From: Phoronis australis
Taxonomy: Eukaryota > Animalia > Phoronida
Length of the DNA stretch: 64,000 bases
Direction: 5' to 3'
NCBI GenBank assembly: GCA_002633005.1
Contig: NMRA01000186.1
Coordinates: 351,479 to 415,478, forward strand
Shown here piece after piece: positions 2,204 through 63,985 of the stretch (its first letter is position 1; the number at the start of each line of letters is the position of its first letter). Made by a program: the position numbers and the translations under genes. The notes beneath the pieces are model-generated. The model was given only the letters and a program-made list of their open reading frames with translations, was not told the origin of the DNA and made no database searches.

Positions 2204-2337
2204 GCTATGGACTGACAGTGAATGCTAGAAGCTCGTGGTATGAAATAACGCGCCGTTTCAATCATATATAAAAGTTAATGCTCGCATTCGCTTTAGAAAA
2301 AAAGGAACAACTTGAAATTAACCATGTTACAAAGTAT

Positions 2338-14119: not shown

Positions 14120-14292
14120 GAAATGTCGCACAATGTTAGCATTCCATGCGATGCTACTGTGAGCGATTACCTGCGGTTGATATGTGTTACGGTATATATC
14201 TTTACTTACAGAGGGGAAGGAAACAATACAGCGACTCGTGAGCAGCTGTCATTGGATCACGACGTCAGCTGACACTCCGAGTGGAAACAAGC

Positions 14293-22374: not shown

Positions 22375-22382
22375 AAGAAATG

Positions 22383-35300: not shown

Positions 35301-36006
35301 AACGCTCTGTTGACTCACTCTATTGCCACTGGTCATGAAATAGTCAACTCGGGTGTGACAATCCTTGATCAACATCATGCAGAGAGCTCACTCAACCGCA
35401 ACATTGAGGCATACAAAGCTAGTGCTGAGGTAGAAATTAGATTTTCAGTACTGTGATATGCACTCTGGTGTGAAGTACGGGAATATGGATTTGTCTCGCC
35501 TTCGTAAATATATAAGTTATTGAATCTGTGTATACAGATGGTAGGCCTATTGAGGGTTATCGAAGCGTCCTCACTATGGAGCACGACGTCTTGTTTTTGT
35601 TCAGATTATCGATAGAAATTTCGCATCTACGTAGTATTAAAGCGTGTTTTTGCATTTTATGCAAGTGTTGAAAGTTAATAACTTCACTTTATGTCGTTCA
35701 AAAGACCGATTAAAAGGCGCTAGAAAGTACTCTTTTATGTAAAAATCATCCTACGGTCTTTAATGCTAGACCGATCCCGCCACTGATTGGCGAGTTCCAT
35801 GCAGATGCCTCCCCACTCCTACTTTTTTCACGTTCATCTTGAACTAGAAATGTGCGAGTAGACAAAGCGGTGCCGTGGCCGTGAAACGATGAGATTAGCT
35901 GTGCGCGACGTTCGCTTGAAAAAAGCGTTGTATATTATACATGTTCCGTGTTTTCCTAAGCTGTTGCCCGGAGTAGGTTGAACTTTAATGTCCGTTGAAT
36001 TCAGTC

Positions 36007-36099
36007 AGAATTTCCCGTCTTAATGAAAAATTCCCATCTCACTGCGCGAAGGAGGAATGGCTTTAAATAGGTTCGTTTGCTTTGAAAATTCACACTTGC
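36007..36099 (+). promoter_or_regulatory. Core promoter of ZnF-coil gene 1: two kappaB-like motifs, TTTAAATAG box, TTCACACTTGC initiator-like motif
   Basis: AGAATTTCCC 36007-36016, AAAAATTCCC 36026-36035, TTTAAATAG 36062-36070 and TTCACACTTGC 36089-36099. The same order recurs upstream of genes 2 and 3. Confidence 0.6.
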
Positions 36100-36128: not shown

Positions 36129-37099
36129 ATGGCAGAACTGTGCATAATTTGCCAAACAACATGTGCAGACGAACGAAGTTTGATGGAGCACTACATGCAA
36201 CAACACAAGTGCATCCCCAGCAGTAAGTAGATCACGTGGTAGCTCGCCGAGAATTTGAGGAAAGCTGTCCTCGCCTAAGATTCGTACATTATGACTGGCA
36301 TCTGCATTATGATGAAATTCGATTTTGCTTTAACATAAATTGTTGACTAAATAGTAGCTTTCATTAATTATTAAATATAAGTCTACACTAAAAAGTATCA
36401 ATCTTATGCAGTCAACTATAAGAGCTGCCGTTTATGCTGTCATTGCCCCACTTTTTCATACATGATGTGCATAATATCTCTTTACATGCAGTAAAATAGT
36501 TGGGACGTTGGCGTTTCCAAGTTCAACACATGAGAGCACATGTATACCAATTAGTTCAATGAAGTCTACCGATCGTGGGTAGATGACTACGAGCTCAAGT
36601 CCAGCATTAGGCACGTGCTATGAGGGGAACCGTTATATACGCACCACGTACTGATACATACGTATAAGTCTGTGTGCGTTGAGCTACAATTTAAGTATAG
36701 TACCCAAATACACAAACACCGGTGTATTTTACAATATCATGTATTATAATTACAGCGTACAATGACGCGCAGAAGATGCTGATGCTGCAGTTGCAACTGC
36801 AATTAGCACAAGAGAAAACGAAGCAGTTGCAAATTGAAAAAGACCACGAGTTACGCATGCAGGAACGAGAGCTGGCACATCAAGAAGAAATGCAGGCAGC
36901 AGAGAACCAACGACGCCGGGACGACCACAAAATGGAGATGATCAGAACGTACATGAAACCGAAAGTAACAGAAAGAACCACAGTGAAGGAAGGATGGTTC
37001 TCCACAACTAGGACGACCGATAGATCGGAGACAGTTCCCGACATTGCAAGTGTCCTTGAGAAATTCAACAACGGCGGAAGGCTCGCTCTAACTCAATGA
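36129..37099 (+). CDS. ZnF-coil family gene 1, join(36129..36222,36756..37099), 145 aa: C2H2 finger + 1 helical repeat + conserved C-terminal module
   Basis: Exon 1 encodes MAELCIICQTTCADERSLMEHYMQQHKCIPS (C-x2-C-x12-H-x4-H). Donor A|GTAAGT and acceptor TTACAG| form a phase-1 intron that joins in frame to YNDAQKML...EKTKQLQIEKDHELR...KPKVTERTTVKEGWFST...ETVPDI. Confidence 0.85.
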
Positions 37100-37559
37100 A
37101 TGTAAGAACACAATCAGTTTTAAAGCCTAACTTCAACGGAATTTTGTTATTTTAGATGTACTTGGCTAACCAGGTAGCAAAACCTTGGCAAAATAAGAAA
37201 ACGCAACTGTAAGCCTGTCAAATGATAAGTGAAGCTCATTTCGTGTCCTATTGCGTCACAACAACAAAAGACCGATAACAGCTGTATTTAATAGGGGTCT
37301 GGATAGAACGTCATTGCGCGCGGGTGTTTCTCGCAGTTGTGATTCTCACGGTGACGTAAGCAAAGCAAGTCAATACACCTAACAGTTCATTACATGTGAT
37401 AATTGATAATTTTTGGCACTAGTTGGCTCAGAGCGATGCTCTTAACATATTACAGGCACTCAGAAATTTACTGGTGTTATCTTTTAAGCTAGGCCTTAAG
37501 ACATGCCTTAATTTGAAACCAGCATTGCTTTCTGATTTAGCTAGCAGCAGTAATACATC

Positions 37560-40500: not shown

Positions 40501-41165
40501 CGCTTACCAAACTCATATTTCATCTAAAGACTTAAATTGATTTGTTGGCCTGTTCGAAGGCCGGCAACTGCGGGCTTCCGAATTGCACATAAAATGAAAG
40601 GTTCCCTGTCAAAACAAAACTCACTAACTTCACAAATTTATGTCATGTATCAATGACCAATTGCTATTTTAGAAATGTCAAATCAGCATTTATTTGTCTA
40701 GTCCCAATGGTGAACAATACAAAAATAAATTTGTTTACCATTGTGGCATCTAGTTGAATAATCTTTGATCATAAGACTTAACAGCACTTGTCAACTTCAC
40801 ATCAAATCAATATGGTTTCAAGACATACACTCGCCATGAGTATATCCTAAGTTTGGTGAAAATCCGTGACTCACTTTTTCAGTAGTTCCCCAGAGCCCAC
40901 ATGGCAAATCCTGAAAACGATGGCCAGAAAAGCTGGAAAAACCAATAACTGAGCTGAACGCACTGACACCGGGCATAGTCCACTAACTGAAAACGACCAT
41001 TATGTAGAATACAATTCAAGGAAACGTTTTGTAGATATAATACACATGGGAGTAAAGTTAGCATGTTTGAGTTGAAACGCATATCTCAAGAAGACTTGCA
41101 AGATTCCAATTTCTCACAGTAAACCTACACAACAGTATACAGCCTAGGTTGCATTCCATACCAAG
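37560..41165 (+). repeat. Duplicated intergenic spacer, unit A
   Basis: Collinear blocks are shared with 42082-45330, 46130-47070, 51170-54330 and 58040-60390, for example CAAAATGAAAAGGAAAACC, GGGGCGATATTTATGACAGTTCAAA and TACCCACGTCCGTTAA. Confidence 0.88.
39870..40350 (+). mobile_element. CR1/L2-group LINE 3' fragment inside unit A
   Basis: LFADDPVVF, YCIKWKLGINMSKTRIVVFRRG and LQLFDTKIRPI, ending at AATAAA near 40336. Confidence 0.65.
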
Positions 41166-41196
41166 AAAGAGAGAGGGGGAGGGAGAGGGAGAGAGA

Positions 41197-42008
41197 NNNN
41201 NNNNNNNNNNNNNNNNNNNNNNNNNNNNNNNNNNNNNNNNNNNNNNNNNNNNNNNNNNNNNNNNNNNNNNNNNNNNNNNNNNNNNNNNNNNNNNNNNNNN
41301 NNNNNNNNNNNNNNNNNNNNNNNNNNNNNNNNNNNNNNNNNNNNNNNNNNNNNNNNNNNNNNNNNNNNNNNNNNNNNNNNNNNNNNNNNNNNNNNNNNNN
41401 NNNNNNNNNNNNNNNNNNNNNNNNNNNNNNNNNNNNNNNNNNNNNNNNNNNNNNNNNNNNNNNNNNNNNNNNNNNNNNNNNNNNNNNNNNNNNNNNNNNN
41501 NNNNNNNNNNNNNNNNNNNNNNNNNNNNNNNNNNNNNNNNNNNNNNNNNNNNNNNNNNNNNNNNNNNNNNNNNNNNNNNNNNNNNNNNNNNNNNNNNNNN
41601 NNNNNNNNNNNNNNNNNNNNNNNNNNNNNNNNNNNNNNNNNNNNNNNNNNNNNNNNNNNNNNNNNNNNNNNNNNNNNNNNNNNNNNNNNNNNNNNNNNNN
41701 NNNNNNNNNNNNNNNNNNNNNNNNNNNNNNNNNNNNNNNNNNNNNNNNNNNNNNNNNNNNNNNNNNNNNNNNNNNNNNNNNNNNNNNNNNNNNNNNNNNN
41801 NNNNNNNNNNNNNNNNNNNNNNNNNNNNNNNNNNNNNNNNNNNNNNNNNNNNNNNNNNNNNNNNNNNNNNNNNNNNNNNNNNNNNNNNNNNNNNNNNNNN
41901 NNNNNNNNNNNNNNNNNNNNNNNNNNNNNNNNNNNNNNNNNNNNNNNNNNNNNNNNNNNNNNNNNNNNNNNNNNNNNNNNNNNNNNNNNNNNNNNNNNNN
42001 NNNNNNNN
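41197..42008. other. Assembly gap (812 N) flanked by (GA)n microsatellite
   Basis: Run of n; GA-rich sequence at 41165-41196 and perfect (AG)n at 42009-42080. Confidence 0.99.
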
Positions 42009-42081
<73 letters not shown>

Positions 42082-42083
<2 letters not shown>

Positions 42084-45000
42084 ACACAATTCATGGGTAG
42101 GATGGTAAATCGAAGCTTGAAAAAGATGCCATAATGAAATGTTAAGGTGAAGTGAGCTAAAAACAAACCAAATTTCCTCTCAAGATCAATAATTTTTTGC
42201 TCAGAACAAAATTTACTGTTTTTGAGATTTTGTTAAAAATCACCGATTTCCTGTACCATTTAGTGCGGACTAGGGTTTATGACCGCCAGCAAAGCTGAGG
42301 TACATAGATTTCGCGTTTGGTTGGCTCTTATTTCAGCAAACTATTTTTCTCACTGGTAATGTTGCTTTAACACTTGAATTAATTTAGAAGTCAGTGTATT
42401 TAACCCATTTCGACCCACTATAGTTTATCACATACATGTACGGCAAGAGTGCCGTTCATTGGTAGTTTTCTAGCAATGTTAATACCTCCGCGGACAAGAA
42501 AATTTTCAGAGTGCTTTACCCCAAAATGAAAAGGAAAACCATCTTGCAACAATGAACAATAGGCTAGTCACATTTTGGAAGCTCCAGAAAAACAACACTG
42601 ATTCGCGGAATAGACCAATCATCCATGTACCGCGTGGGATTTTTGTCTACTTGGTTTTCCCGTGGTCATGTAAAAACCCTTACAAACCGGATTAGTTCTT
42701 TATATTGTCAAGTTGCCACAGCAAATGATTCAAGCTCAACAACCGTGAATGAACCTGGTATAATGGGATCACGACCCAATTTATTTCTGCTCTATAAACA
42801 GAAAGACAAATATGTAGCTGTAATCGATATTCTTACTGGGTAAAACGAAATTTCTCCATAACGGACGTTTTGTTGTAAATTTTGTTTTTTTAGCTTTTAT
42901 TGTAAGTTCCCTTCGTACAGACGAAATGGAATCATATAAGGCAGAGCTCGTAAGGGCTGTCATAGGTGATTAATCCGTTCTTCGGTACGACCTACTGTTC
43001 TCGAGCTTTTACGATTACTTTTATATTTTATGACTTCTCGTGCCGTAGCTCCGGCGTCATTTGACTAATCTGTCAGAAATTTGCCACAAGAATAGATCTT
43101 GTTGGGTGCTACGAAAAGTTATCAGTAGCCGATTTTCCGACTTAACCGTTCTAGAGTTATTCGATTATTTGACCTACACTCTCAGGTGTTAAAAACGCAA
43201 TGTGAGTCGCGGTTTTGTGACTGCATTTATTATTTCCGTCAAATGCCTATTAAATTCTCATTCAGTGTCAAAATCATGTAGACGACTTTACAGTTGTAAA
43301 TTCAGGTTCGTCTTGGTTTCTAGCAGTTCTTGCTTTCAAAAGCAACCATCTTTTAATGTCGGGACGTGAAGATGGACTTCCAAATCTGGGGCGATATTTA
43401 TGACAGTTCAAATTGTGAAAACAGAACCCATGTTTAAACCAAGAGCTAAATTATTGTGTCCCACGCCAATGCCCGTGTGCTCTCAAAACATTACCTATTT
43501 TACAGTTCCAAACAAGTAAAGATAATGATCTCCCATCACATTTACCCACGTCCGTTAACCTGCACAGATAACCCAATGCATTGCCAACGAACTCCATGGT
43601 AGGCCTATCACAAAATCGGTGCCCATAGCGAGGTATAGGACACTACCCCTAGAAGCGCAACTAAGATCTCGCGTGTCTGGGGTTGCACCGAGCACGCGTG
43701 CCCCTTATCAATTCTTGGTGTATGATTCCACCAGAAGCAAGAGACAATGAGCTTATAAGTCAATTATTATTATTTCGTATACTTGGCAGGTTCAAAGTAT
43801 GTTTTAATCTGAAAACTAAGATTGTTAACAAAATGGGAAAATAACGGGGTGTAATAGCGAAGTAAAAAACTAAATGAACCAGAGAGGTTATAAACGACTA
43901 GTTAAGCCAACTGGGAAACGATTTCAACGATTCAAATCATTTCTACCCAATAAAGACAAAGATTTTAGAATAAGAGTCCCTCACAATTGCTATGAAGAAT
44001 TTAGTCAGACATTCAGGCAAAATTATACATCTTTATACATTAACTAGAACACTGGTGCCCTTTTATACAGTGACATACTTCAGTAAAAATTCAGGACTCA
44101 TTGAAATTTACAAAAATGTGATCAAATAATTACTCCAGCTATTTATCCAAAATTTGCAGATAAAGGTTTTCTGATAGATGAAAACATGGGCAAATATCTA
44201 CTATGTAGCTTTGAATTGTACTGTGGATAGCTCGTTACATTGGTTGCAGTGTAGGACTTTCCACAGAAGTCTGATGTATGATTCAGCGGGAACTGTGCTG
44301 TGGTGCTCTAGATTGATTTACGCAGGGCGTTTGATACGGTGAATAGCGATTCTTATACGTTTATGGCAACCACTAATGTTCCCCATGTTGCGCATCTGTA
44401 AAAACTCAGTGCCCGGTCATATTATGTTTACCATGTAATTCCTATGGTTTAAATTTCTAACAGTTAATTTTCACGAGAAAGCATAACAGAAAACATGGAC
44501 GTATTCGATATGGGACTTGCCAATAAGCCCCTTTTCACGTTCTATAAGGTTTCCATGCAACGTCTTTACTGTCATCGTTGCCAGACGCGTCCTCACAATT
44601 ATGCATGTATACAAATGTCATCATAGTCCTGAGCAGTGATCGGCTATTGTGTTAATCGCTTAACAAACTCAAATTTCATCTAAATATTTGAATTCATTAT
44701 CAGCCACTTCGAAGGCCGGCCACTGGACCTTCCAAATTACACATTAAATGAAAGGTTTCGTGTCAAAACAAAACTCACACATTGATGACATGTATTGATG
44801 ACCAATTGATACAGTGTATTTCAGAAATGTCAAATCTTCATTGAAATGACGAACCTCAATGCAAAAATGATTTTTTTTTATCTTTGTTGGTGATGAGTAA
44901 TACACGATCGTAAGAAATAGAAGAACTTTACGTTAAGTCAATGTGGTTTCAAGATCTAGACTCGCCTTATGTGTATCCTAAAAGATTTGTGAAAATCTGT

Positions 45001-45330
45001 GACTCACTTTTTCAGTAGTTCCCCAGAGCCCACATGGCAAATCATGAAAACGATTTCCAGAAAATCTTGGCAAATCATGAAAACGATTGCCAGAAAATCT
45101 GGAAAAACCATTAACTGAGCTGAGCGTACTGACACAGGCATTGTCCAGTAACTAAAGACGGCCATTACAGTATGTAGCAGGCATTGGACGGTAAGGTTAC
45201 AAGACATTTGAAAGTAAAGTTAGCATGTTTGGCTTGAAATGCATATCTCAGGAAGACTTGAAAGATCCCAATTTCTCACAGGAAACCTGAACAACACCAC
45301 GCAGCCTCGACTGCGTTCCATTTTTTAACC
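42082..45330 (+). repeat. Duplicated intergenic spacer, unit B
   Basis: Starts CAATTCATGGGTAG...AAAAGATGCCATAATGAAATGTTAAGG like 37618-37693. Ends GACTCACTTTTTCAGTAGTTCCCCAGAGCCCACATGGCAAATC...CAATTTCTCACAG like 40868-41119. Confidence 0.88.
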
Positions 45331-45419
45331 ACATCTTGGAACACCAAGAAATAACAAGAACAACAGACTGAGAGAGAAAGCAAGTCGTGATTTAATTAAA
45401 CATCAACATTCAATATTTA

Positions 45420-46110
45420 CGTTTAAATATGAATTAACGTTTATTCATACTCGAGGCCATCGGCCCACGGTACTTACATATCAAACACAACAATAAAATA
45501 CAGTGAATACGCATACGCATGTGTAGTAGTTTCAATCCTCAAGTAGTTTTTGTTTTAAAACAGAAGTGTGGTATACAATTTGATTAGGTTTCTAAGCACA
45601 CTGGGATCAGAAATTTCCATTAATCTTAACGTAGAAAATATATCTGAAACTAAATAAGGCGATCCAGATCCTCCCAAGGATAATATTGTTTCATGAATTG
45701 AAGAATATAAATCGGAAAATAAAACAACAAGAATGGATCAACTGAAATCCACCATTAGTCGGATTGCTCCAATGTATTCAAGGTAACATTCTACTTCTCT
45801 AATCATCATAACATGGACATATTCAGATAAAGTGATATTCATTCTCAATAAATTTTTAACCAAGGTTCTGTTTACATAAAGAAGAACATATTCGGAGGAC
45901 TTCATCGATTGGTAAGCTTCGACCTACCTCGACCATCAGTCTCTGATTTGAACGACGGAATCTTGCAGCGAGGTAACTCAAAAGAAAAATATGTTTCAAG
46001 AGTAAACGTCGTTTTGAAAAGTGGATATGTACACACTTTCAAGTTATTTTGCACGTCTGTGTTCCATTCTTGCAAAAAGCAATCATTGACTCTTCGTTCA
46101 AGGGTACTTA
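45420..46110 (-). mobile_element. Probable CR1/L2-group LINE 3' end separating units B and C
   Basis: On the minus strand, GGGCCGATGGCCTCGAGTATGAATAAAC resembles the 3' end at 40313-40341. The coding remnants are very degenerate. Confidence 0.4.
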
Positions 46111-46129
46111 GGAATAATTTTTTTCATCC

Positions 46130-47070
46130 GACGCCTTGTTCAAAGCAGCAAACTGTATTTTTTCTCACTGATAATGTCGAGTTAGTATACTTAAACAAGT
46201 TTTTAAATTCCACCACATTCAGAAAATTTAACGAAAAAATATCCAATAGCCTAAACTGCATATTATTACACGCGACCTATTTCTATCAACGTTAATACCT
46301 CTGCGGACAACAAAAAGGTCACACATTCTTTTACCCCAAAATGAAAAAGAAAGCCATCTTGCAAGAGTGAGGAGGCTAGTCACAATTTTGAAATTCCAGA
46401 AAAAGCAATGCTGATACTTGGAAAGTGTAACCACAATCATAAAGGTTTTATAGCCTTTCAGTTTGTGTTTTTCAATACATGTTGATTAATCACCCATGCA
46501 CCGCGTCATGGGATTTTTTCGATTTGTTTTTCCCCCATGTAATGTAAAAAACCCTTACAAACTTTCCAGTTAATTAACGACCTCAATAGGTACCACGTGT
46601 CCATGACTCAATTCACCTCAAGGAAAATAGATATTGTTGAGTGCAACAAAAGGTTAACAGCAACCGTTGTCTGGTTCCGACATAACAGTTCTCGAGTTTA
46701 CTGGATTGCTTGTTAAACGCGGCATGTGAGTCGCGGTTTCGTGGATACATTTGCTATTCAAAATACCTATTAAATTCTCCATCAATGCCAAAATGGTTAA
46801 GACCACTTCACCGTTATAAATCAGGCTAATCTTTGTTTCTAATCGTTCTTGCTTCCAAATGCAATCACATGGTACATGTGGGTCGTAAAGCTGAACTTCC
46901 GAACCTGGGGCGATATTTATGACAGTTCAAAACTTGAAAATAGAACCCATGTTTATAGCTGAGCTAGAACAGTGCGTCCCATGTCAATGCTTCTGAACTC
47001 TAAAACATGACCTATATCCATGCATCCGATACAAATAGAGACCTCCCATCACGTCTGTTAATCTGAACAG
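46130..47070 (+). repeat. Duplicated intergenic spacer, unit C (partial, cut by a LINE)
   Basis: Shares AAATTCC(A/G)CCACATTCAGAAAATTT with unit D (51624), plus CCCAAAATGAAAAAGAAAG and GGGGCGATATTTATGACAGTTCAAA. Confidence 0.82.
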
Positions 47071-50000
47071 TTTTTTGACATTGATGGTAATAATAATAAC
47101 ACAGTGCAAAGACAGAAATTTCCACTGACACATCACACACACACGCACACATTTCACCGAAAACTCAAGTTCACAAACCAATAACACCAAATGTACTTTT
47201 CTCATCTGCATTTCTTATTAAAGAGGAAAAAACACACCATCTTTGGAGAAATATGTCTCCTAATCCATTTTTACCTTAATTATGTTTATCGAATGCTTTC
47301 TGCAGTATATAATTATCTGCTTTTTGGCCAGAAGAACGATCAAATTCAACAGTTCATTCGCTTTTCCAGTTTTACCAAATATAACAATCTGAAATCTATC
47401 GAAATATCGACGTTTTTTGAGTGAATATAATATTCTTTTCCAAAAACGGCCTAACAAAAAGTGCAACTCCAAAATAATAAATGTTCTAAAGTTTCAGGTT
47501 CATTCCTACAAAAGGTACATCGGTCAGTTGGAGAAATACCAATTCGCATTAAAAAGTTATTCTCATTTGAAACCATCTGATTATAACATGTGAAGTACAA
47601 AAAACAGAAGTTTGAAAACATAACTTCCATTCGCTCACTGATCTTGCAAACCAAAAGTATTTTCCCATTTTCTAATCCTTGTGGTTTTTTAAAAAAGTTG
47701 CCAAAATTTATGATATATATCACGAGTACCTTTCGAATTTTTCGCCAAAATTTGCCAGAGTTATGTGATAACTGTTTGAGACACTTTTGAAATTGTCTGC
47801 AAAACTGTGCTGGTACCTACCACTATAAAATTTTATGCATCCAGGTATATTTCGCTATTCAAACGTTTCTTAATAATGACATGTCACGTTTGGTAAAGTT
47901 GAATGCCTGTGCTTTTACTAGAAGGATTTCAATCTATAGAGATGTTCTGACACCCACCATAGGCAGAGCACCAATACCTGCCATGGAGGGAATTGCGTAC
48001 ATATCATGGTCATGCCTGTAAGAACGCTGTTCACCGTGGGTCTATCTAAATAACGAAATAAACAATGCTTGAGTCGCTCCCACTCGTGAAGCCGCATCTG
48101 TGGGTACACCGGTTTAAATAGTGGAAACTGCCAAACTGGGTCCATCTACATATATACACATTTGGAAATGCAGCGATGGGTCCACCTATTGCAGTGACAC
48201 CAGTATGTATTTACATAGGTGGTGGATCCATTTGTATAAACATGAATGGATCCACTAGAGAGGGTTATTTAAATTTATAAAAGTAGACCCTTCATGATGG
48301 GTTTAGTTATATTTTATAGGCTGACCCACCTGGATGGGTCCATCTATATAAATATAACTGGACTCGTCATGATGGCTACAGTTATATTTTTGTTGATTGA
48401 CCCGCCGGGATGAGTCCATCTATATAAATATAACTACCCATCATGACGTGTCATTATATTTATACAGGCAGACTCATCCCGTCTTTGGTGTACTCAGTTA
48501 GAAACAGACTTGGCTGATAAACCTTTACCGACAGGTGCGTCCACTTATAATTATATATAACGTGAAAACACATATATTTATGTGGGTGTCCCCATTTTTT
48601 GTCCATGAAATGCAAAATTTACTAAATAAGAAAAGTTCAAATTAAATACGAAGCTGTTTTGTATGGCAAAAAAAATCCGTTTTCGTCAAGTAAATCGCCT
48701 AATAATTTCCCATTCTTTTCATTCTAAGTAGGGTTAAATATTGGTTTTCCTCCAATTTGAACCTTTGTGTTATGCTATAAATGAATGGACAGGATTCTGT
48801 CATCTTTTTGACCTCGTTTAATATCCACCCAAACTCAAATGTTGAACCAAACACATCCTTCCAAAACGGATTCCTTGTGGACTGGGCAACCATTTTATAA
48901 TAGTTTCCTCCATTGAGCATTTTTTCAATGCCAAATTGACTTGAATTCCATAAAATATCTATCCAGACCGAATTATTTTGTCCATTTATAATATTTTTAA
49001 CCACGTTTCTTAAAGAACTTTTTAAATAAAGGAAACTACATGAACGATGTTGAGGCCGCAAATTTTATAATTCTGAACCATTGTCTTACAATTAATTTCA
49101 TCTTTTTTTACTCCAAATAAACTGAAAAAAAAAAACATTTTCTCCAGGTGTTTGATAACATTGTCCTGTGATGATGCGATGTGTAAGCTCAAGGTCCAAT
49201 TTGAACAAGTCAGACGCCATTTTGAATGACGCAAAGCTGTGAGTTTTCAATTAACATTTTTTCCTTTCACAAAAAATGTATCCAAACCCAAGCAACGTAA
49301 GAAAATTAAACAGAAAATCCCAAGACAATGAATCTAATGCTTTTTCAAAATCCATTATTGTCACAAAACCGGGAAGTTTACGCGAATCCGTATAATGCAA
49401 AATGTCAAAAAGATTTCTGGTGTTCTCATCAATAAATCGCCCAGATAAAAAACCTGTCTAGAAGAATTAATTTTTCAAGAATTTTTTCAGTCTTTGTTCT
49501 AAACACGATGACAAAAATTTGTAGTTTATATTTAACAAGGAAATTTGACGCCAATTTTTAAAAAAATCTGTGTGAGTACTGGGTTTTGACAGAACTTTAA
49601 TTACCCCTTGCAGTTGTGAAGCTGGGGAGTATTCACTTCAAAACTAAAGTTAAAAGACTTAAAAAGAAAGGCGATAATTCCTTTCAAAAGTATTTATAAA
49701 ATTCAACAGTAAAACCGTCAATTCCTGGATTTTTGTTATTTTTCATTGTTTTCAATGCAATTTCTAATTCTTGCGGATCAATATCTGCACCTAAACTTGC
49801 TCGATCAACTTCTTTTACTTTTTGAAACTTTGAATTTCCACCATATCCTTGATATTCCTAATTCCACATGCGTTGTCTCTCTACAAGCATATCGTTTTTC
49901 GTAAAAAGATGTTAATTCAATTAAATTTCTTTTTGATTTGTCAAAGTTTCATCCATTTTATCTTTAATAGCTTAAAAAATTCACGACATCGGCGTTTGGC

Positions 50001-50340: not shown

Positions 50341-53300
50341 GTAAGGGACTGGAATTACCTGCAAGTACGATACACCGAAACATAGAGCTAAAAGGAGGAA
50401 CCAAGCTGGTCGCATAGAGATGGTTCTGGCAAGTTAAACAATAACTTGCGAACTACGTACTACATCATTTTCCGTGAGATATCTTACACTATGAACTGGG
50501 TCGAGGACTTGAATTATTCTATGGAAATTTTAACCCAGTGAGAGATTTGTGAGTCCAATAATTTGGAATCAGTCTTGAGGGCTTGTTTCTTGCGCGAAGG
50601 TCAGGACGAAATCTTTGCACAAAAATAAGAAAAAGCTTCAGAAAGCAAGCTACAAGGACTACGTAAAATCGAGTGTCACACCCTTATTTCAGATTATGGA
50701 TGTTCGCAGTGATAAATTAACGCTAGCAACAAGAGAACGTGTACATGTAGCTGTCCAGTTTTACCATATCAATTTTTTACGTTACTTCGTCTCGAAACAC
50801 GGAGTTAATTTTCCAATAAAAGGACCAGTCCTATTGTCATTGACGGATAGCTAGGGTTTACACGAGGCAGAAAAGGGAGCCTAGTACTACCAGCATAGCT
50901 TGTCAGCCGGTAATGTAATGATTACAACAAAGTTGTCTTGGATTTTTTCTAGAATCTTGTTTGCCTTTTGCAGGTGCAAATAAAAGACTTACCTTCTAAG
51001 GAAATGCTATCACGTTTACAGGAAATAAAGTTGACCATCGAGCACTGTCTAAGTTTGCTCCTTTTTTCTCTGGCAAATAGACAAGACCAACATATCCGAT
51101 TAACATTACGTCATCGTTCTACTCCTACCCATTGCAAACTTTGTGATATATTCTGCATGTATATCAACATTTTATGGTACAATTGAAAAATAATAAAGAA
51201 CAGTTAAAAATACCCTCGTTTTTATGGTAAACACATCACAATTCCTGGGTAACATTTTGCATGTAAGGATTGCAAAAAAAACTGCAATTTTATACTGATA
51301 AGTCGATGAACTGATTCAAAAACAAGCCGGATTTGCTGTCAACGTAACGAGTAATTTTTTACTCGAAACAAAATTCTCTGTTTTTACGATTTTGTCAGGA
51401 ACCACCAATTTCCACCTTTGCCTGGCAGACACTTATTAAAATCAAGGGCGATAACTATAATATGCTTAAAACGTCAATTTCATGTGTAGGGCAACACCGC
51501 TAGAAGAGGTGGGGTTGTGAGTTAGCGTTTAGTAGGCACTGATCTCAGCAAACTGTTTTTTAGCAGAATAATGTCGCTTTAGCATTTTACACAATTTTAT
51601 AAGTCAGTGTATTTAAAATTAATAAATTCCGCCACATTCAGAAAATTTTGCGAAAGAAATACCCAACAGCCTAAATTACATATTATTACACACAGGTTTT
51701 GCTAGCAATGTATAATACCTCACGGACACACACTCTTTTACACGAAAATGAAAAGGAAAACCAAAAGTGAGAAAGTAGTCACATTTTGGAAATTCCAGGT
51801 GTGTCAACACTGATTCGTGGAATGTGTAACCACAATATTATTTCTGGCGTTTATTAATAGATCAGTCGATTGCTTTTCCCTGATGTCTTAAGAAACTTGT
51901 TTATTTAATTAACTACAGTGAATGAACCTTAATAGGTACAATGGGTTCACCACCCAAATCAAACTCAAGAAAAATGAATAGATGCTGTTGGGTGCTACGA
52001 AAAATTAACAGTAACCGTTTTTTGATTGCGACTTAATCGTTCTCGAGTTATTCGATTATTTGACCGTCACTCTCATGGTGAGTAGCGGCTTTGTGACTGC
52101 ATATTCTATTTAAAAGGAAAATTGAATTCTCATCCAATCAGTGTCAAAATGACGTAGCCCACTTTACATTTGTAAATTTAGGTTAATCTTGGTTTCTAGT
52201 AGTTCTTGCTTCCAAAGGCAATTAATTTTATACGACCGGGCTTGAAGCTGGACAAATTTGGGGCGATATTTATGACAGTTCAAAATGTGAAAATAGATTC
52301 GATGTTTATACCAAGACGTCCAATTGTGTCCCATGTCAGAGCCATGACCTCGCAAAACATGAACTTAATCTATCCTTCCGAAGTAAAGATAGTGATCTAA
52401 CATCATATTTAACCTACCCACGTCCGTTAATGCATTGCCAACGTACTCCATAGTAGGACTCCCACACAATCGGTGTCGATAGCGAGGTAGTCAGGATCAC
52501 AGGACACTACCCCTAGAAAGTCAACTTAGGTCTTGCGCTGATGAGGTTGCACCGCACACAAGCGCGATTTGTTTGCATTCGTTTGTTCTGGTGCTGGTTC
52601 CTGCTTTGGAATTTATTGGCACTAACTTTTCGCTACTCCGCCGTTTTTCAACTAATTTTAATAAGAGTCATATCATTAAAATGACGCTTACCAGTTATTG
52701 ATGTATGATTACATTAGGAGTAAAAGACAAATAATTTAACTTATAAATTATTATAATTTCACGTACCAGAGAGGTTTAGTGGTATTTTTTCAATCTGAAA
52801 TCCATGAGTGTCACCAAAATGCGAAAAATAACTGGTGTAGTAGTAAAATAAAAAATGAACCAGAGATGTTTAAAACGATTGGAAAAACCAGCTGGGAATG
52901 ATTTAAAACATTTCTACTCAATAAAGAAAAAGACCATCCCTAAAACTTGCTGTGAAGAACTTAGTCATGCAAAATTATTCATCTTCATATTCATGTATTA
53001 GTTGGACCACGCCGTTTGATACAATTGTTCTTCATCGAAAAATACAAAATATGTGATAAAATAAATACTCCAGCTATTTACAAGGAAATTTGCAGATGTA
53101 GTTTTTCTGATAGATGAACACCAAACATCTATTATGTAGCTTTGAATTGTACCGTGGATAGAAGTTTGATGAACAGAAAACAATTTCGTATAATTCAACG
53201 GGAAATGCTATCGATTCATTTACGCCAGGCATTTAATAGGATGGATAGCCGTTTCATGTGGAAACAGTACTTTCCATACACCTGTAAAAGCCTAGTGTCC

Positions 53301-54560
53301 ACTCATATTATGTATTTCACGTTATTTCTATGGTGTAAAATTCAACGAGTCATTTTGCCATGGGACTTGACAATGAGCCCCTTTCCACTTTTCATAAGTT
53401 TTCCAAGCACTGCATTTACTGTCATCGTTGCCAAGGTGGTTATCAGTATCAGTAAGTGAGAAATTCTTCAGATGCATGTACACTAAAGATAAAATTCATC
53501 ATTCTCTTCAGTAGTGATCGACAATTGCGTTAATCTCTTACGAAAGCTAACTCTCGTCTAAAAATTTGGATTGATTTGCCAGCCTGTTGGAAAGCCGATC
53601 ACTGGGGCTTTCCCAATTGCGCATAAAATGAAAGGTTTGATGTCTGAACAAAACCCACCGATTTTACGGAGTTATGACGTGAATTCATGACCAATTTTAA
53701 TTTTTGAAATGCCAAATCTAAATTTTGCTGTTGAGTCCAACGCGCTACACTTCTGCCTTTAATGAAAGGGTGAGGGGTTGTAATCAAGGTTGTAATTTTA
53801 GTACTAACTGGAACTAAACGAATTGATACAGTGATAACGTTTACAGTGCAAATAGTGTCTTAATAACCCCTTAATAACTTTCGTCTTTAAAAATCCTATA
53901 CTACAAGCACTGACAACAAAAACGATATTTTACCTCACTCCTCAATTTCCCATTAACGATCGTTGGTTTTAAATGCGCTTCATACCTGGTTTCTTCACTT
54001 TGCTTTTAGTACTCCAGTCTATTTTTTGTTTCCTGTTGTGTGGCAACATGTTTTGTGGCAGATTTTCATCCTCAGGAAAACATAGAAGTCACCTTTCGCT
54101 CACCGACCCACCTCATCTCATTGATTTGATTTCCCAGACTTTTGGTTTTAGCTTATTAAGTCATCCATATTTAAAAACCAAAAACCATACCTATGCTGTT
54201 CTTTCCAAATGAATTCCTTCATGTTTATTTTTAACGAAAATTATTGGTGTCTGCATTTTGAAATTTCTCCATTACGAGATGATTACTACAGATTGGGGCC
54301 GGTAATTACATATTGGGTCTTGCTTGCACTAGACAATGCGGTCGTCACAACTGTGGGCGATTCTGGCACCGCGCCCCGGCACTGATTCTCAGGTGAAAGC
54401 CGCTCAGAACAACGTTGAAAGAGCAGCGGTGAAAATTTCACGTTTTTATTTAGAAGTGCTTGTTTTCTTTGTAAGCGAATCAAATTTCACGGCATTTAGT
54501 AGAAAAAATCGTTGCCAGTTTCGTATTTACCCATGCCGTTGCTGTTACTAGAGAGTGCTT

Positions 54561-54643
54561 TGGCCTTTGACCTTCATAGTGTTAGTTGGAATTTCCCATC
54601 GGTCCTTAAATAGATTTCTTTTCTTAGGATATTTCACACTTGC
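54561..54643 (+). promoter_or_regulatory. Core promoter of gene 2: DR1-type element, consensus kappaB site, TTAAATAG box, initiator-like motif
   Basis: TGGCCT-T-TGACCT 54561-54573, GGAATTTCCC 54588-54597 (reverse complement GGGAAATTCC), TTAAATAG 54606-54613 and TTCACACTTGC 54633-54643. Confidence 0.7.
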
Positions 54644-54664
54644 CTTGTGAGCCTTCTGATCAAG

Positions 54665-55587
54665 ATGGAGAAAAAATGCCTAGCATGTGGACAAACCTTT
54701 GAAAACCTACAAACATGGACTGAACACTGTAAAGAAACACACGGTGAGTGTATTTCTAGCAGTAAGTACTAAAGTTGAGGCTCATCGAGAACTTGCGGAA
54801 AGCGATCTTCGGCCTAAAATTGTGCATAGCGACTGGCATGCATTACCATGAAATTCACGTTTCTTTTAATATAAGTTACTGACTAAAAGTAGCTTTCAAT
54901 TCCTTAATTATCAAATATAAGCCTGCACTAAAGTACAGTGTACCAGTCCCAAGTTATGCAGTCAACGAAAAGAGCGTACAGTGTACGAGCCTGCGTGCGT
55001 TCATAAAGACAAATGTTGAGCTATACGTGTGTATATTAGTCAAACGCACAAACGCCAGTATAATTTACAATATCAAATTTTCGATTGCAGGGTTAAATGA
55101 CATGGTTCTTTTAATGCAAATGGAGATGCAAATGCAAATGCACAAGGAGGAGGAGAAAACCAAACAGTTGCAAATGGAGAATGATCACGAGTACCGCATG
55201 CAGGTGGAAACGAAGGCGGAAGAACAGAAAACCAAAAAGTTCCAATTTGAGAAAGAACGCGAGTACAATATGCAGATGCAACAGCAGCAGGAAAAAGAGG
55301 CAACCAGACAGTTAGAAATTAACAAAGAACACGAGTACCGCATTCTCCAAGCAAACCAGGAACATGACGTAAAAATGAAGGCAGAAGCGAACCGACGACA
55401 TATGATGGACATCCAAAATGACCTCTATCAATCCTATTTACGACCAAAAAAAGTAACAAGAACCATGGAGAACAGAGGTTGGCTCTCTACAGAAGTGAAG
55501 ACCGAAACATCGGAAGAACTTCCCGACATTAGGGGTCTCATTGCAATTGGCGGGTTCAGCAAGGGTAATTTGGCCATTACTCAGTGA
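54665..55587 (+). CDS. ZnF-coil family gene 2, join(54665..54761,55091..55587), 197 aa: C2H2 finger + 3 x 24-aa repeats + C-terminal module
   Basis: Exon 1 encodes MEKKCLACGQTFENLQTWTEHCKETHGECISS. A GTAAGT donor and TTGCAG acceptor (phase 1) join it in frame with LNDMVLLMQ...RPKKVTRTMENRGWLST...EELPDI. AATAAA at 55684-55689. Confidence 0.88.
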
Positions 55588-57080: not shown

Positions 57081-60000
57081 ATATAAAAGCAAACTAAGAA
57101 GAAATCGTAATTCAGCGTGACAGCGTCAAAAAATAAAAATTAAATCTTGATTTCCGTCGGTTTAGCATTTCTTGCGAATAAAAAAGAACAGCAGAACCCA
57201 GTGACACAAACCATATTATGAAGTGCATGTAGGAAAAACGAATCAAAAAAAGTCCGCATGGTACAGCTATGAACGCAAAACAAAACAAAACAAAACAAAA
57301 CTAGGAGGGGCCACAGCAGTCGAAGTCGCCGTCAACCGTTCTCTTCACACTGAGAACGTAAACGCCAATTATCAAAATCATCCTTAGAATGGTTTAGTTG
57401 ATACAGGGACGGACGCCAAAAAAACAGACTCGAAAACAGCAAAAAATGCCCTCTTGGTGGCGCAAAATATCTCGAATCCATTCGAAAATAGGAGGATAGT
57501 ATCATCTCACAAAGACGAAAACCCGGCACAGAAATAAGTAAAAGCTTCAGAAAGCAAGCTACAAGGATTGCGTTACACCGAGTGTCACATCATTGCTTCA
57601 GATTATAAAAGTCTGTCGGTTTAAACTAACGCTAGCAACAAAAGAACGTGTACATGTACATGTAGCTATCCAGTTTTAACATATTTACGTTATTTCGTCT
57701 CGAAACCCGGAGTTAATTTTCCAGTAAGAGAACCTGTCCTATTGTCGTTAACGGAATGGTAGCGTCTACACGAGGCAGAGAAGGGAGCCTAGTACTACCA
57801 GCATAGCTTGTCCGCCGGTAACGTAATGATTACGACAAAATTGTCTTTGGTCTTTTCCAGACTTTTGTTTTCCTATCTCAGGAGCAAATAATAGACTTAT
57901 CTTTTGAGAAAATGCTATTAAAGTTTACCATCACTGTCAAAGTTGGCTCCATCTTCTGTGGCAAATAGACAAGACCAACACATCCTACACCATTGCAAAC
58001 TTTGTGATATATTCTACAAGCATATCAACTGTTACATTTTATGGGATAATTGGGAAATAACAAAGAACAGTTAAAAATACCGTCGTTTTTATGGTAAACA
58101 GAGCACAGTTCCTGGGTAGCATTTTGCATATAATAGGGATTTCCAACAAAAACTCTGCGATACTGAAAAGTCGAGGAACTGATTTAAAAACAAGCCGAAT
58201 TTTCTCTCAACGTAACGAGTAATTTTGTGCTCCAAACAAAATTCGCTGTATTTACGATTTTGCAATAAACCACCAATTCCCATCGTTGCCTGGCAGACAC
58301 TTGTTAAAACCAACAGTCTAACTTTCATATTATTACACAAGGCTTTTTTCTAGCAATGTATAATACCTCAGCGGAGACACACTCTTTTACACAAAAATGA
58401 AAAGGAAAACCAAAAATGAGCAAGTAGTCACATTTTGGAAATTCCAGGAAAGTCAGCACTGATTCGTGGAATTTGTAACCACAATATTATTCCTTGCCTT
58501 TTTTTTAGTAATAGATCAATGACACGTGGGATTTTTCTATTTCCTTTTCCCCGACGTCATGTAAAAACCCATAAAAGCCTTTCAAAACCACTCAAGTAAC
58601 TTGTTTATTTTTCAACGACAGTGAATGAACCTTAATAGGTACAATGGGTTCACGACCCAATTCAAACTCAAGAAAACTCTGATTAGATCCTGTTGGGTGC
58701 TACGAAATGTTAACCGTTTTTTTTTTTTTGGTTGCCGCTTAACCGTTCTCGAGTTATTCGATTTTTTGAGTAGCGGCTTTTGACTGCCTTTACTATTTAA
58801 ATGAATATTAAATTCTTATTCAATCAGTGTCAAAATGACGTAGCCTAGTTTACCGTTGTAAATTTAGGTTAATCTTGGTTTCTAGTCGTTCTTGCTTCCA
58901 AAGACAATTAACTTTATACGGTAGGGGTGAAGCTGAACTTCCAAAATTTGGGGCGATCTTTATGACAGTTCAATATGTTTATACCAAGAGATAGAATTGT
59001 GCCCCATGTCAATGCCATGAGCTCTCAAAACATGACTATAATCTATCCGTCCGAAACAAGCCAAGGAAGTGACCTCCCATCGCATTTACCCACGTCCGTT
59101 AATCTTAACATAAGCCACATATGCATTACCAACGTACTCCATAGTAGGACTCCCACACAATCGGTGCCGATAGCGAGGTAGTTAGGATCTCAGAACACAA
59201 CTACTGGATAGTCAACTTCGATCTAGCGCTGATAATGTTGCGCCGCGCACAAGCTTGATTTGTTTGCATTTGGTTGTTCCGGTGCTGGTTCCTGCTTGGA
59301 ATTTATAGGCACTAACTTTTCGTTACTCCGCCGTTTTTCAACTAATTTTAATAAGAGTCATATCATTAAAATGCCTCTTACCAATTATTGATGTATGATT
59401 AAATCAGAAGTAAAAGACAAATAATTTAACTCATAAATTATTATAATTTCACGTACTAGAGAGTTTTAGAGGTATTGTTTTCGATCTGAAAACCAAGAGC
59501 GTCACCAAAATGTTAAAACTAACGGGTGGAGTAGTAAAATAAAAATGAACCAGAGAGGTTATAAACGATTAGTAAAACCAGCTAGGAAACGATTTCAATG
59601 ATTGAAACATATCCCTACACAATGAAGACAAAAATTAGTGAACAAAAGTCGCCGTGAAGAATTTAGTCAGGCATTCATGCAAAATTATACGTCTTCATAT
59701 ACATGTATTAGTTGGACCACGCCGTTTGATACAATTGTTCTTCATCAAAAATTCAGGGTGCAGTGACATTTACAAAAAATGTGAAAAATAATTACTCCAA
59801 AAATAAGGAAATTTTGCTGATGAAGTTTTTCTGATGGATGAAAAATGGACAAACATCTACTATGTAGCTTTGAATTGTGTGGTGTATAGAAGTTTGATGA
59901 ACAACACAAAACAACCCCATATGATTCATTTACGCCAGGCATTTAATACGATGGATAAGCGTTGCTTATGGAAACGGTAGATTCCATGCAGTGCACCTGT

Positions 60001-60598
60001 AAAACCAGTGTCAACTCATGATATATTTTCACGTTATTTCTATGGTGTAAAATTCCACCAGTCATTTCGCCATGGGACTTGCCATTGAGACCCGTTTCAC
60101 TTTCCATTAGTTTTTCACGCACCGCCTTTATAGTCATCGTTGCCAGCCAGGGTCGTCCTCCCGAGAAATTGTTACTAGTTCCTTTGGGTGTATACCACAT
60201 CATTCTCTTCAGTATTGATCGACAATTGCGTTAATCCCTTACGAAAACCAAATATCGTCTGAATATTAAAAATTGTTTTGTCAGCCCTTTTGAATGCCGG
60301 TGACTGGGGAATTCCTCATAAAATGAAACGTTCGCTGGCTAAACTAAACCAACCAAAGTCATAGATTGATGACGTGGTTCATGACCATGCGGTCGTTACA
60401 ACTGTACGCGATTCTGGAACCGCGCCCCACACTGATTCTCAAGTGAAAGCCGCTCAGAACAACGTTGAAAGAGCAGCGGTGAAAATTTTCACGTTTTCAG
60501 AAGTGCCTGTTTTCCCTGATCGAATTGATTACGGCATTTAGTAGGAGCTTCGCCTGTTTCGTGTTTACCCAAGCTGCTGCAGCTACTAGGGAGTGCTT

Positions 60599-60681
60599 TG
60601 GCCTTTGACCTTCATAGTGTTAGTTGGAATTTCCCATCGGTCCTTAAATAGATTTCTTTTCTTAGGAAATTTCACACTTGC
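60599..60681 (+). promoter_or_regulatory. Core promoter of gene 3: DR1-type element, consensus kappaB site, TTAAATAG box
   Basis: TGGCCTTTGACCT 60599-60611, GGAATTTCCC 60626-60635, TTAAATAG 60644-60651 and TTCACACTTGC 60671-60681. Confidence 0.7.
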
Positions 60682-60702
60682 CTTGTGAGCCTTCTGATCA
60701 AG

Positions 60703-61546
60703 ATGGAAAAAAAATGCCTAGTATGTGGACAAACCTTTGAAAACCTACAAACATGGACTGAACACTGTAAAGAAACACACGGTGAGTGTATTTCTAGCAG
60801 TAAGTACTTAAGTTGAGGCTCATCGAGAACTTGCGGAAAGCGATCTTCTGCCTAAAATCGTGCATAGCGACTGGCATGCATTACCATGAAATTCGTTTTT
60901 ATTTTCATATAAGTTGCTGACTAAAAGTAGCTTTCAAATAGAGCGTACGAGCCTGCGTGCGTCCATAAATACAAATGTTGAGCTATACTGTAGGTGTGTA
61001 TATTAATCAAGCGCACAAACGCCGGTTTAATTTAATAACAAATTTTCGATTACAGGGTTTGATGACGTGTTTCTTTTAATGCAAATGGAGATGCAAAGGC
61101 AAATGAAGCAGGAAGAAGAGAAAACCAAACAGTTGGAAATTGAGAAAGAAGACGAGTTCCGCATGAAGATGCAAATGAAACAGGAAGAAGAGAAAACCAA
61201 ACAGTTGGAAATTGAGAAAGAATACGAGTACCGCATGCTGAGGCAAATGAAGTGGGAAGAAAAGAAAACCAAACAGTTGCAAAATGAGAAAGAATACGAG
61301 TTCCGCATGCATAAAAGAAAACTGGCACTTGCAGAAAAAATGAAGGCAGAAGAGAACCAACGACACCTTATGGACATCAAAGAGGAAATAATTAAACCCT
61401 ATTTACAACCAAGAAAAATAGAAATAACCACGGAGAGCAGAGGTTTGTTCACTACAGACGTGAAGACCGAAACCAGAGAAATACATCCCGACATTGCGAG
61501 TGTCTATAAGAAGTTCAACATCGCGGGTTCTTTGCCAATTACTTAG
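60703..61546 (+). CDS. ZnF-coil family gene 3, join(60703..60799,61056..61546), 195 aa: C2H2 finger + 3 x 24-aa repeats + C-terminal module
   Basis: Exon 1 encodes MEKKCLVCGQTFENLQTWTEHCKETHGECISS. A GTAAGT donor and TTACAG acceptor (phase 1) join it in frame with FDDVFLLMQ...QPRKIEITTESRGLFTT...EIHPDI. Confidence 0.88.
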
Positions 61547-63769: not shown

Positions 63770-63985
63770 AGGCGCCAGTGGTCGAAATCGTCGGAAAATC
63801 ATCGTCAGCCGTCCTCTTCATAATAAGACCATACACGCCAATTTTAACAATCACTCTTTGAGCGGTTTGGTTGATAGAAAGTGGGAGCAAAAACAGACTC
63901 GAAAACTGTAAAAATGGCCACTAGGTGGCGCAAAGTACGTCGAATCCATCCAAAAACGGGATCGAGGTAGCGTCATCTCACTGAA
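63770..63985 (+). repeat. Dispersed repeat, also at ~57300-57515 (likely a DNA-transposon terminus), containing a CTCF-like motif
   Basis: GGTTT(A/G)GTTGATA...AAAAACAGACTCGAAAAC...GGTGGCGCAAA...CGAATCCAT...TCATCTCAC is shared by both loci. Confidence 0.7.

What the first reader, a model, noticed from the sequence alone, without database searches (positions are those of the whole stretch)
54561..54643. All three genes keep a kappaB - TATA-like - initiator promoter layout
Seen: GGAATTTCCC (reverse complement GGGAAATTCC, a full GGGRNNYYCC match identical to the IFN-beta PRDII site) ends 8 nt before TTAAATAG in genes 2 and 3. The divergent gene 1 has two related motifs (36007-36016, 36026-36035) before TTTAAATAG and the same TTCACACTTGC. 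A second consensus site lies further upstream at homologous positions, with different sequence but the consensus kept: GGGGCTTTCC (53604-53613) and GGGGAATTCC (60306-60315). Inference: NF-kB/Rel-inducible immune or stress genes.
Basis: partly seen in the sequence, partly recalled or inferred. Interest (0 to 1): 0.8.

Follow-up and report, generated by a model that had tools for sequence, protein, structure and literature searches.

The report
Co-switched orphan genes, likely NF-kB promoter
Three neighbouring copies of an unnamed animal gene are spliced, transcribed from the same short promoter and go from almost off to strongly on together between RNA samples; a textbook NF-kB site beside the start of two of them likely makes them inducible defence genes, but the motif repeats only because the copies inherited it.

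Summary
RNA reads add what sequence could not: genes 1 and 2 are spliced on the + strand, gene 3 letters appear in the same run, and 5' ends pile up 15 and 17 nt behind the A of TTCACAC. In three runs of one study the genes are 29- to 110-fold higher in one run, while a flanking repeat is level. The conditions are unknown, so induction is not shown. The 'kept in all three' argument is weak: genes 2 and 3 share a 293/300 tract, likely by gene conversion; gene 1's two motifs are one duplicated 19-mer of the same ancestral element; motif conservation does not exceed the intron's; the distal sites lie in a block whose two gene-less copies lack them. What remains is one perfect kB site at -48..-39 (0.4% of simulated 100-nt stretches). 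The proteins (C2H2 finger, coiled coil, predicted hairpin) have no relative found; exon 2 of genes 2/3 shows dN/dS 1.8-2.7. Verdict: real promoter, Rel control about even odds, known regulatory design, new gene family.

The parts
36001..36019 (+). Gene 1 promoter, first copy of a tandem 19-mer; holds kB-like motif 36007-36016 (-85..-76)
   Evidence: 15/19 identical to gene 2's 54582-54600, 13/19 to the next copy
36020..36038 (+). Gene 1 promoter, second copy of the 19-mer; holds kB-like motif 36026-36035 (-66..-57) and the TTCCCATC core shared with genes 2/3
   Evidence: 14/19 to gene 2; aligned to the gene 2/3 site
36062..36070 (+). Gene 1 TATA-like box, at -30 from the A at 36092
36089..36099 (+). 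Gene 1 initiator-like motif TTCACACTTGC (proposed +1 at 36092)
   Evidence: 10 read ends pile at 36107 in run X4
36129..36222 (+). Gene 1 coding part of exon 1: single C2H2-type finger
   Evidence: joint 36222-36756 GT..AG in 80 X4 reads and one X1 contig
36756..37099 (+). Gene 1 coding part of exon 2: long helix, predicted beta-hairpin, short helix (145-aa protein in all)
40570..40579 (+). Position homologous to the distal kB site in a gene-less copy of the flanking block; no consensus (GCGGGCTTCC)
44724..44733 (+). Same position in a second gene-less copy; no consensus (TGGACCTTCC)
53604..53613 (+). Distal consensus kB site of gene 2, at -1032
54551..54850 (+). Tract 293/300 identical to gene 3 (60589-60888): core promoter, exon 1 and 107 nt of intron; likely gene conversion
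54588..54597 (-). Gene 2 proximal kB site GGGAAATTCC (-48..-39), overlapping an ATGGGAA core
54605..54613 (+). Gene 2 TATA-like box
54633..54643 (+). Gene 2 initiator-like motif (proposed +1 at 54636)
   Evidence: 5 read ends at 54653 in X4; X1 contigs align from 54651 and 54654
54665..54743 (+). Gene 2 coding part of exon 1: C2H2-type finger
   Evidence: joint GT..AG in 59 X4, 2 X2 and 3 X3 reads
55091..55587 (+). Gene 2 coding part of exon 2: repeated coiled-coil units and C-terminal domain (191-aa protein)
60306..60315 (+). Distal consensus kB site of gene 3, at -368
60626..60635 (-). Gene 3 proximal kB site, inside the tract shared with gene 2
60643..60681 (+). Gene 3 TATA-like box (60643-60651) and initiator-like motif (60671-60681)
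60703..61546 (+).
   Evidence: open frame, GT..AG; gene 3 letters in 15/34 and 19/43 X4 reads laid on gene 2, and gene 3 loose ends

Best explanation
Three tandem two-exon paralogs are transcribed and spliced from a shared short promoter and switch on together, and a Rel/NF-kB dimer likely throws that switch from a kB site just upstream of a TATA-like box. Shown: the gene structures, the strand, the 5' edge 15-17 nt behind the TTCACAC motif, the joint on/off pattern. Inferred: TBP sits on the TATA-like box at -30 and RNA starts at or near the A of TTCACAC (ordinary RNA-seq loses the first bases; recalled); after infection or injury IkB is degraded and Rel binds GGGAAATTCC at -48..-39 in genes 2/3 and two weaker sites at -85 and -66 in gene 1; short one-intron genes then rise fast. 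All proximal sites descend from one ancestral element, duplicated as a 19-mer in gene 1 and kept identical in genes 2/3 by gene conversion, while exon 2 of genes 2/3 diversifies. The products lack a leader peptide and are likely intracellular, coiled-coil proteins with one zinc finger; a defence role is inferred from fast evolution. The distal sites are likely secondary or incidental.
For: Perfect IFN-beta-type site 8 nt from the TATA-like box; 0.3-0.4% chance per 100 nt for this motif. 5' pile-ups at +15 and +17 in two diverged genes. Exon-2 depth per 1000 M letters: gene 1 53.7 in X4 against 1.13 and 0.48; gene 2 30.5 against 0.50 and 1.05; control repeat 71, 72, 64; junction reads 80/0/0 and 59/2/3. 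Gene 2/3 exon 2 dN/dS 1.76-2.67, bootstrap share dN<=dS at most 0.018; X1 against window 23 non-synonymous of 24 changes in gene 2, 4 of 15 in gene 1. The GGGAA half-site is intact in all three separately evolving copies. NF-kB binding preference is similar between a sea anemone and human (PMC3630861, section 21); kB + TATA + Inr is the layout of fly immune genes (PMC12922788, section 22).
Against: Sample conditions unknown; one high run of three, one study; tissue, stage or individual explain it equally. No window-wide enrichment of kB sites. Promoter motifs are no better conserved than the intron: gene 1/2 promoter 70% with 4 runs of 7 or more in 178 columns, intron 78% with 13 in 331. Gene 1 has no strict site. 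The strictly shared core reads ATGGGAA, also an RBPJ/CSL-like motif. kB was picked after the fact (17 motif classes scanned, many more exist). Many consensus kB sites are non-functional (PMC5372544, abstract), and a fly gene with kB-TATA-Inr is reported as constitutive (PMC11116330, passages). A minority of reads begins upstream of the sites (depth 11 against 78 next to gene 1, 3 against 43 at gene 2). A three-sequence codon model did not favour omega other than 1. Rel was not shown in this genome (none held).
Confidence: 0.5

Rival explanations
1. The promoter is real but the genes are tissue-, cell-type- or stage-specific, driven by another factor that reads the same bases (CSL/RBPJ on TGGGAA, or an NFAT- or Ikaros-like factor); the kB match in genes 2/3 is incidental.
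For: TTCCCATC (ATGGGAA on the other strand) is the only run of 7 or more identical bases at the site between gene 1 and gene 2; RBPJ has TGGGAA and NF-kB-like motifs (PMC4291530, passages); gene 1 is as strongly switched as genes 2/3 without a strict kB site; run differences may be tissue.
Against: An RTGRGAA match is common (6% of simulated 100-nt stretches), the first 19-mer copy in gene 1 lacks it but keeps GGGAAATT, and the recalled high-affinity CSL site has a G where these have A. Fast protein evolution is more typical of defence genes (own knowledge).
Confidence: 0.28
2. None of the proximal upstream motifs matters; they are inherited neutral sequence, and the joint on/off pattern comes from distal enhancers (for example the duplicated flanking block) or from the chromatin state of the whole cluster.
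For: Motif conservation is not above the intron's; simulated neutral change at 22-30% keeps a relaxed site in 13-23% of copies and the distal strict site in 16%; the genes lie within 26 kb; gene-linked copies of the block both carry a strict kB site and TGACGTG that the gene-less copies lack, which would fit distal control.
Against: A perfect kB site within 50 nt of an RNA-supported start is a 0.4% event for this motif; gene 1 has no distal strict site yet switches with the others.
Confidence: 0.17
3. The main start lies elsewhere (about +10 to +17, or upstream), so the TATA-like and initiator labels are wrong even if the genes are real.
For: No read pile-up at the proposed +1 itself; edges are at +15 to +22; some reads begin upstream, past 35700 for gene 1; the TATA-like octamer has 1-2 mismatches to the recalled TATAWAWR; my search for a paper on 5' loss in RNA-seq gave nothing usable.
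Against: The offset is the same in two genes whose 5' UTRs differ in length (37 and 29 nt) and sequence; TATA-like box to initiator spacing is the canonical 29-31 nt in all three.
Confidence: 0.05

Closest known systems
Drosophila antimicrobial peptide promoters (Relish kB sites + TATA + Inr; PMC12922788 section 22, PMC11116330 passages)
   Same: kB or kB-like site close to a TATA box and initiator in short genes
   Different: No GATA site within -350..+30 in any of the three; products are not secreted peptides; induction and Rel dependence not shown here
Human IFN-beta / IP-10 kB site GGGAAATTCC and IL-8 site GGAATTTCC (PMC9991059 passages)
   Same: Identical 10-mer; the + strand also reads GGAATTTCC
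   Different: No IRF or AP-1 consensus site within -350..+30, so no enhanceosome-like neighbours; a 10-nt identity is not homology
Sea urchin SpTransformer (Sp185/333) cluster (PMC8634487 passages, section 18 part 1)
   Same: Tandem two-exon genes, short conserved exon 1, variable repeat-containing exon 2, TATA and Inr, a GA microsatellite in the cluster
   Different: SpTrf exon 1 is a signal peptide, here a C2H2 finger; SpTrf induction is shown, here inferred; no sequence relative found for these proteins
Coiled-coil + single zinc-finger adaptors of NF-kB signalling (NEMO, optineurin, TAX1BP1; recalled, from no call)
   Same: One zinc finger plus a long coiled coil, no leader
   Different: Finger is N-terminal here; neither Pfam nor PDB sequence hits list these adaptors; PDB hits are ordinary C2H2 fingers

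Membership tests
NF-kB/Rel target promoter | Consensus kB site (GGGRNWYYCC) | tested here: met
   Genes 2 and 3 (one shared tract); gene 1 only relaxed matches
NF-kB/Rel target promoter | Site close to a real transcription start | tested here: met
   -48..-39 from proposed +1; RNA edge at +17
NF-kB/Rel target promoter | Site conserved above neutral background | tested here: not met
   Promoter 70% and 4 runs/178 columns against intron 78% and 13/331; genes 2/3 and gene 1's two motifs are not independent. This removes one line of support; it does not show the site is idle.
NF-kB/Rel target promoter | Induced by immune or stress stimulus | tested here: inconclusive
   29- to 110-fold higher in 1 of 3 runs, conditions unknown
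NF-kB/Rel target promoter | Rel binds the site and is needed for induction | not testable with these tools
   Needs ChIP/CUT&Tag, EMSA, knockdown, reporter
NF-kB/Rel target promoter | Organism encodes a Rel-homology factor | not testable with these tools
   No genome held; taxon not placed; NF-kB is described as pervasive across Holozoa, with none found in ctenophores (PMC13042239, passages)
TATA + initiator core promoter | TATA-like box about 30 nt before an initiator | tested here: met
   TTAAATAG at -29/-30 from the A of TTCACAC in all three; 1-2 mismatches to recalled TATAWAWR
TATA + initiator core promoter | Capped 5' end at the initiator | tested here: inconclusive
   Uncapped RNA-seq edge at +15 and +17; minority upstream reads
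CSL/RBPJ-regulated promoter | TGGGAA core near the start | tested here: met
   ATGGGAA at -61 (gene 1) and -43 (genes 2/3); common by chance (6%)
CSL/RBPJ-regulated promoter | CSL binding, Notch dependence | not testable with these tools
   Needs experiment
C2H2 zinc finger | C-x2-C-x12-H-x3/5-H spacing | tested here: met
   C5, C8, H21, H26 invariant in 3 of 3; best PDB hit Kaiso finger E 0.0011
C2H2 zinc finger | Pfam gathering score | tested here: not met
   Best 18.8 bits against 20.7 (zf-LYAR), 17.1 against 26.9 (zf-C2H2_2); 32-33 aa queries
SpTransformer | Exon 1 encodes a hydrophobic signal peptide | tested here: not met
   Exon 1 encodes a zinc finger; SpTrf feature
SpTransformer | Sequence homology of exon 2 | tested here: inconclusive
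   No direct comparison run; general searches found no relative

The most novel reading that the evidence does not exclude
An undescribed lineage-specific family of intracellular defence proteins (single C2H2 finger, expandable coiled coil, hairpin domain) under direct Rel control, in which gene conversion locks the kB-TATA-initiator switch and the finger exon together while the adjacent exon 2 is driven apart by positive selection next to a conserved parent copy.
Probability: 0.3. Interest if true: 0.62.

Novelty: new member of a known kind. Interest (0 to 1): 0.42.

Why it matters
The promoter design is known. The gain is a testable set of natural Rel target candidates in a little-studied invertebrate, where a review calls for functional work on NF-kB target genes (PMC13042239, passages), and a protein family with no relative found that combines a conserved copy (gene 1, pN/pS 0.09) with two fast-evolving copies sharing one promoter. 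If induction is confirmed, the cluster is a small, clean case of regulation held fixed while the protein diversifies, and a ready reporter for immune activation in this animal.

Tried and rejected
Protein relatives: none for gene 1 exon 2 (7 candidates, 0 at E<=0.001) or gene 2 exon 2 (7 candidates, 0 at E<=0.1); only lengths near the query were searched, longer forms were not. Profile of the three exon-2 products against 1.84 billion representatives: 1 hit, E 3.7e-4, a repeat protein judged spurious. ESM Atlas: best 0.77, no family; no usable hit for the C-terminal part of gene 2. PDB by sequence: 0. Fold searches of the gene 1 exon-2 model: no Foldseek match at E<=0.001; VIA-align rows are generic helices, Z<=6.7, and the hairpin part was barely tested. 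Full spliced proteins were not searched. Placing the taxon through the LRR protein failed (best 22-33% identity). The run finder listed no RNA holder on record, which is no evidence; the laid reads are. Earlier scan notes: nothing. Rfam on 33000-64000: 0. Idea that the flanking block is a decayed LINE: tblastn with four of the window's LINE frames hit only 49311-49755, not the block. A splice acceptor-like TTCTTAG before the gene 2/3 initiator: no listed joint or loose end there (4 loose-end rows not shown) and gene 1 lacks the AG. Heat-shock, AP-1, IRF, STAT, MRE, C/EBP, GATA, ETS patterns: none shared by all three promoters. The composite-layout scan was built from these promoters, so its hits are no test; it gives 0.4 hits per simulated window. 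Literature: no paper held all six of lineage-specific, tandem, coiled-coil, zinc finger, immune challenge, NF-kappaB; the looser search (listing only) showed no such family; this is not proof of absence from print. No complex prediction was obtained; oligomer state is open. A typing slip for one depth row was corrected. No supplementary files were read.

Full report
Observation. GGGAAATTCC is named as the IFN-beta kB site in PMC9991059 (passages). Gene 1 is on the + strand like the others. As a count the motif is not enriched: 6 matches against 3.8 +- 2.5, 27 of 100 shuffles reaching 6. As a position it is unusual: a strict site occurs in 10 of 3054 other 100-nt stretches of the window and in 0.4% of 40,000 simulated ones.

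The genes are real. Self-comparison and translation give three two-exon paralogs of 145, 191 and 189 aa with open frames and GT..AG introns; no fourth copy lies in the window. Reads of four public runs (three raw stranded RNA runs of one study, 18-19% of each read; one contig set) were laid on gene 2 and gene 1. Both are transcribed from the + strand, introns are empty, and the joints are 54743/55091 and 36222/36756.

The start. Read ends pile at 36107 (10 molecules) and 54653 (5 molecules), 15 and 17 nt behind the A of TTCACAC; X1 contigs align from +15, +18 and +22. The TATA-like TTAAATAG begins 29-30 nt before that A in all three genes. The same offset in two genes with different 5' UTRs fits initiation at the motif with the usual loss of the first bases in RNA-seq (recalled; one search found no supporting paper). 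A minority of reads starts upstream: depth 11 over the gene 1 motifs and 2-5 out to 35700, against 78 in exon 1; depth 3 against 43 at gene 2. CAGE is still needed.

The switch. Exon-2 depth per 1000 million letters is 53.7 in X4 against 1.13 and 0.48 for gene 1, and 30.5 against 0.50 and 1.05 for gene 2; a multi-copy repeat behind gene 1, read from other transcripts, is level at 71, 72 and 64. Junction reads are 80/0/0 and 59/2/3. So the genes go on and off together. The conditions are not given, and one high run of three cannot tell challenge from tissue, stage or individual.

Why 'all three keep it' is weak evidence. Genes 2 and 3 are 293/300 identical from -85 to +215, including 104/107 intron bases, against 179/203 just upstream, 77% in exon 2 and 123/159 aligned columns behind the stop: a likely conversion tract, so one observation. 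Gene 1's two motifs sit in adjacent 19-mers that match each other at 13/19 (18 of 63,075 adjacent pairs in the window do) and match gene 2's element at 15/19 and 14/19: one ancestral element duplicated. Between genes 1 and 2 the promoter is 70% identical with 4 runs of 7 or more bases in 178 columns, the intron 78% with 13 in 331, so the conserved boxes do not stand above background. The distal sites lie in a block present four times at that position; the two copies with no gene behind them lack the consensus, a 7-nt gap crosses or borders the gene 3 site, and the distances are -1032 and -368. Neutral change at 24% keeps such a site in 16% of simulated copies, so its retention is only suggestive. 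The one run shared exactly at the proximal site reads ATGGGAA, which also resembles the RBPJ/CSL motif (PMC4291530 passages).

The proteins. Exon 1 encodes C-x2-C-x12-H-x4-H; PDB sequence hits are almost all C2H2 fingers, best E 0.0011, below Pfam cut-offs. AlphaFold2 on a three-row alignment models gene 1 exon 2 as a 65-residue helix, a beta-hairpin (69-92) and a short helix, mean pLDDT 83.7, pTM 0.40; fold searches give only generic helices. No relative was found. Against run X1, gene 1 exon 2 has 11 synonymous and 4 non-synonymous listed changes (pN/pS 0.09), gene 2 has 1 and 23 (Fisher p 8e-6; the gene 2 excess alone p 0.11; the X1 contig may be a further paralog). Genes 2 and 3 differ in exon 2 at dN/dS 1.76-2.67 over 162 codons, bootstrap share dN<=dS 0.018 or less; repeats make the alignment uncertain, conversion can lower dS, and a single-omega model over all three genes did not differ from omega fixed at 1 (log-likelihood -736.46 against -736.68; I did not verify the fixed-parameter syntax).

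Mechanism. Shown: structure, strand, splicing, 5' edge, co-switching, unequal protein evolution. Inferred (0.5): a Rel dimer released by IKK signalling binds next to the TATA-like box and turns on short one-intron genes that encode intracellular defence proteins. Support from papers: NF-kB site preference is similar between Nematostella and human (PMC3630861, section 21); kB, TATA and Inr form the layout of fly antimicrobial genes (PMC12922788, section 22). Caution from papers: many consensus sites do nothing (PMC5372544, abstract), and a fly defensin-derived gene with this layout is constitutive (PMC11116330, passages). Rivals: tissue- or stage-specific control through the same bases by CSL or another factor (0.28); distal or cluster-wide control with idle proximal motifs (0.17); a different main start (0.05).

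Comparison and novelty. It works like a fly antimicrobial or mammalian cytokine promoter, if Rel control holds; membership among NF-kB targets is not established. The cluster resembles sea urchin SpTransformer in layout (PMC8634487, passages and section 18 part 1) but fails its signal-peptide feature. The regulatory design is known; the gene family appears undescribed within the searches run. The organism is an animal by its spliceosomal genes, LRR-Ig protein and LINE content (inference); it could not be placed further and no genome was held.

Verdict.

Noticed in passing
window 11348-14248 (-): Single long frame for an LRR + Ig + predicted transmembrane protein of about 920 aa (Pfam LRR_8 E 3.6e-88, I-set weak); best relatives only 22-33% identical.
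   Followed up: partly
window 15770-15830 (-): Near-palindromic kB-like 12-mer, TATA-like octamer and TCA motif about 1.7 kb upstream of the LRR frame; one such hit per window is near chance (0.4 expected).
   Followed up: partly
window 37500-47070, 50600-53700, 57500-60390: A 2-3 kb non-coding flanking block repeated four to five times at 64-86% identity; the copies at 38.7-41.2, 43.0-45.3 and 46.2-47.1 kb have no gene behind them, suggesting lost paralogs.
   Followed up: partly
window 36021: 3 of 10 X4 reads carry a 6-nt insertion between gene 1's two kB-like motifs, changing their spacing and leaving both intact.
   Followed up: no
window 54744 and 54758: Genes 2/3 splice at a donor 14 nt upstream of the one gene 1 uses; the gene 1-type donor is still present, and both would keep... 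the same intron phase by my reading; use of the second donor was not seen.
   Followed up: partly
window 53675-53685 and 60368-60378: TGACGTG (CRE/unfolded-protein-element-like; label recalled) about 60 nt behind each distal kB site in the two gene-linked block copies, absent from the two gene-less copies.
   Followed up: no
window 37103-37468: A multi-copy repeat right behind gene 1's stop, read from many other transcripts on both strands; used as depth control.
   Followed up: partly
window 1286-2224 (-): 312-aa frame that looks like a von Willebrand A domain by eye; not searched.
   Followed up: no
window 16450-25420, 29750-31400, 49311-49755: Decayed LINE-like and LTR-retroelement-like frames in pieces; described only.
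   Followed up: no
window 41170-42080: GA microsatellite around an 812-nt assembly gap inside the cluster; too short to hide a whole further gene of 900 nt or more if the gap size is right.
   Followed up: no
window 63803-63981: Matches 57330-57510, the spacer behind gene 2, so the array may continue beyond the window; X1 holds three distinct exon-1 contigs of the gene 2 type.
   Followed up: no
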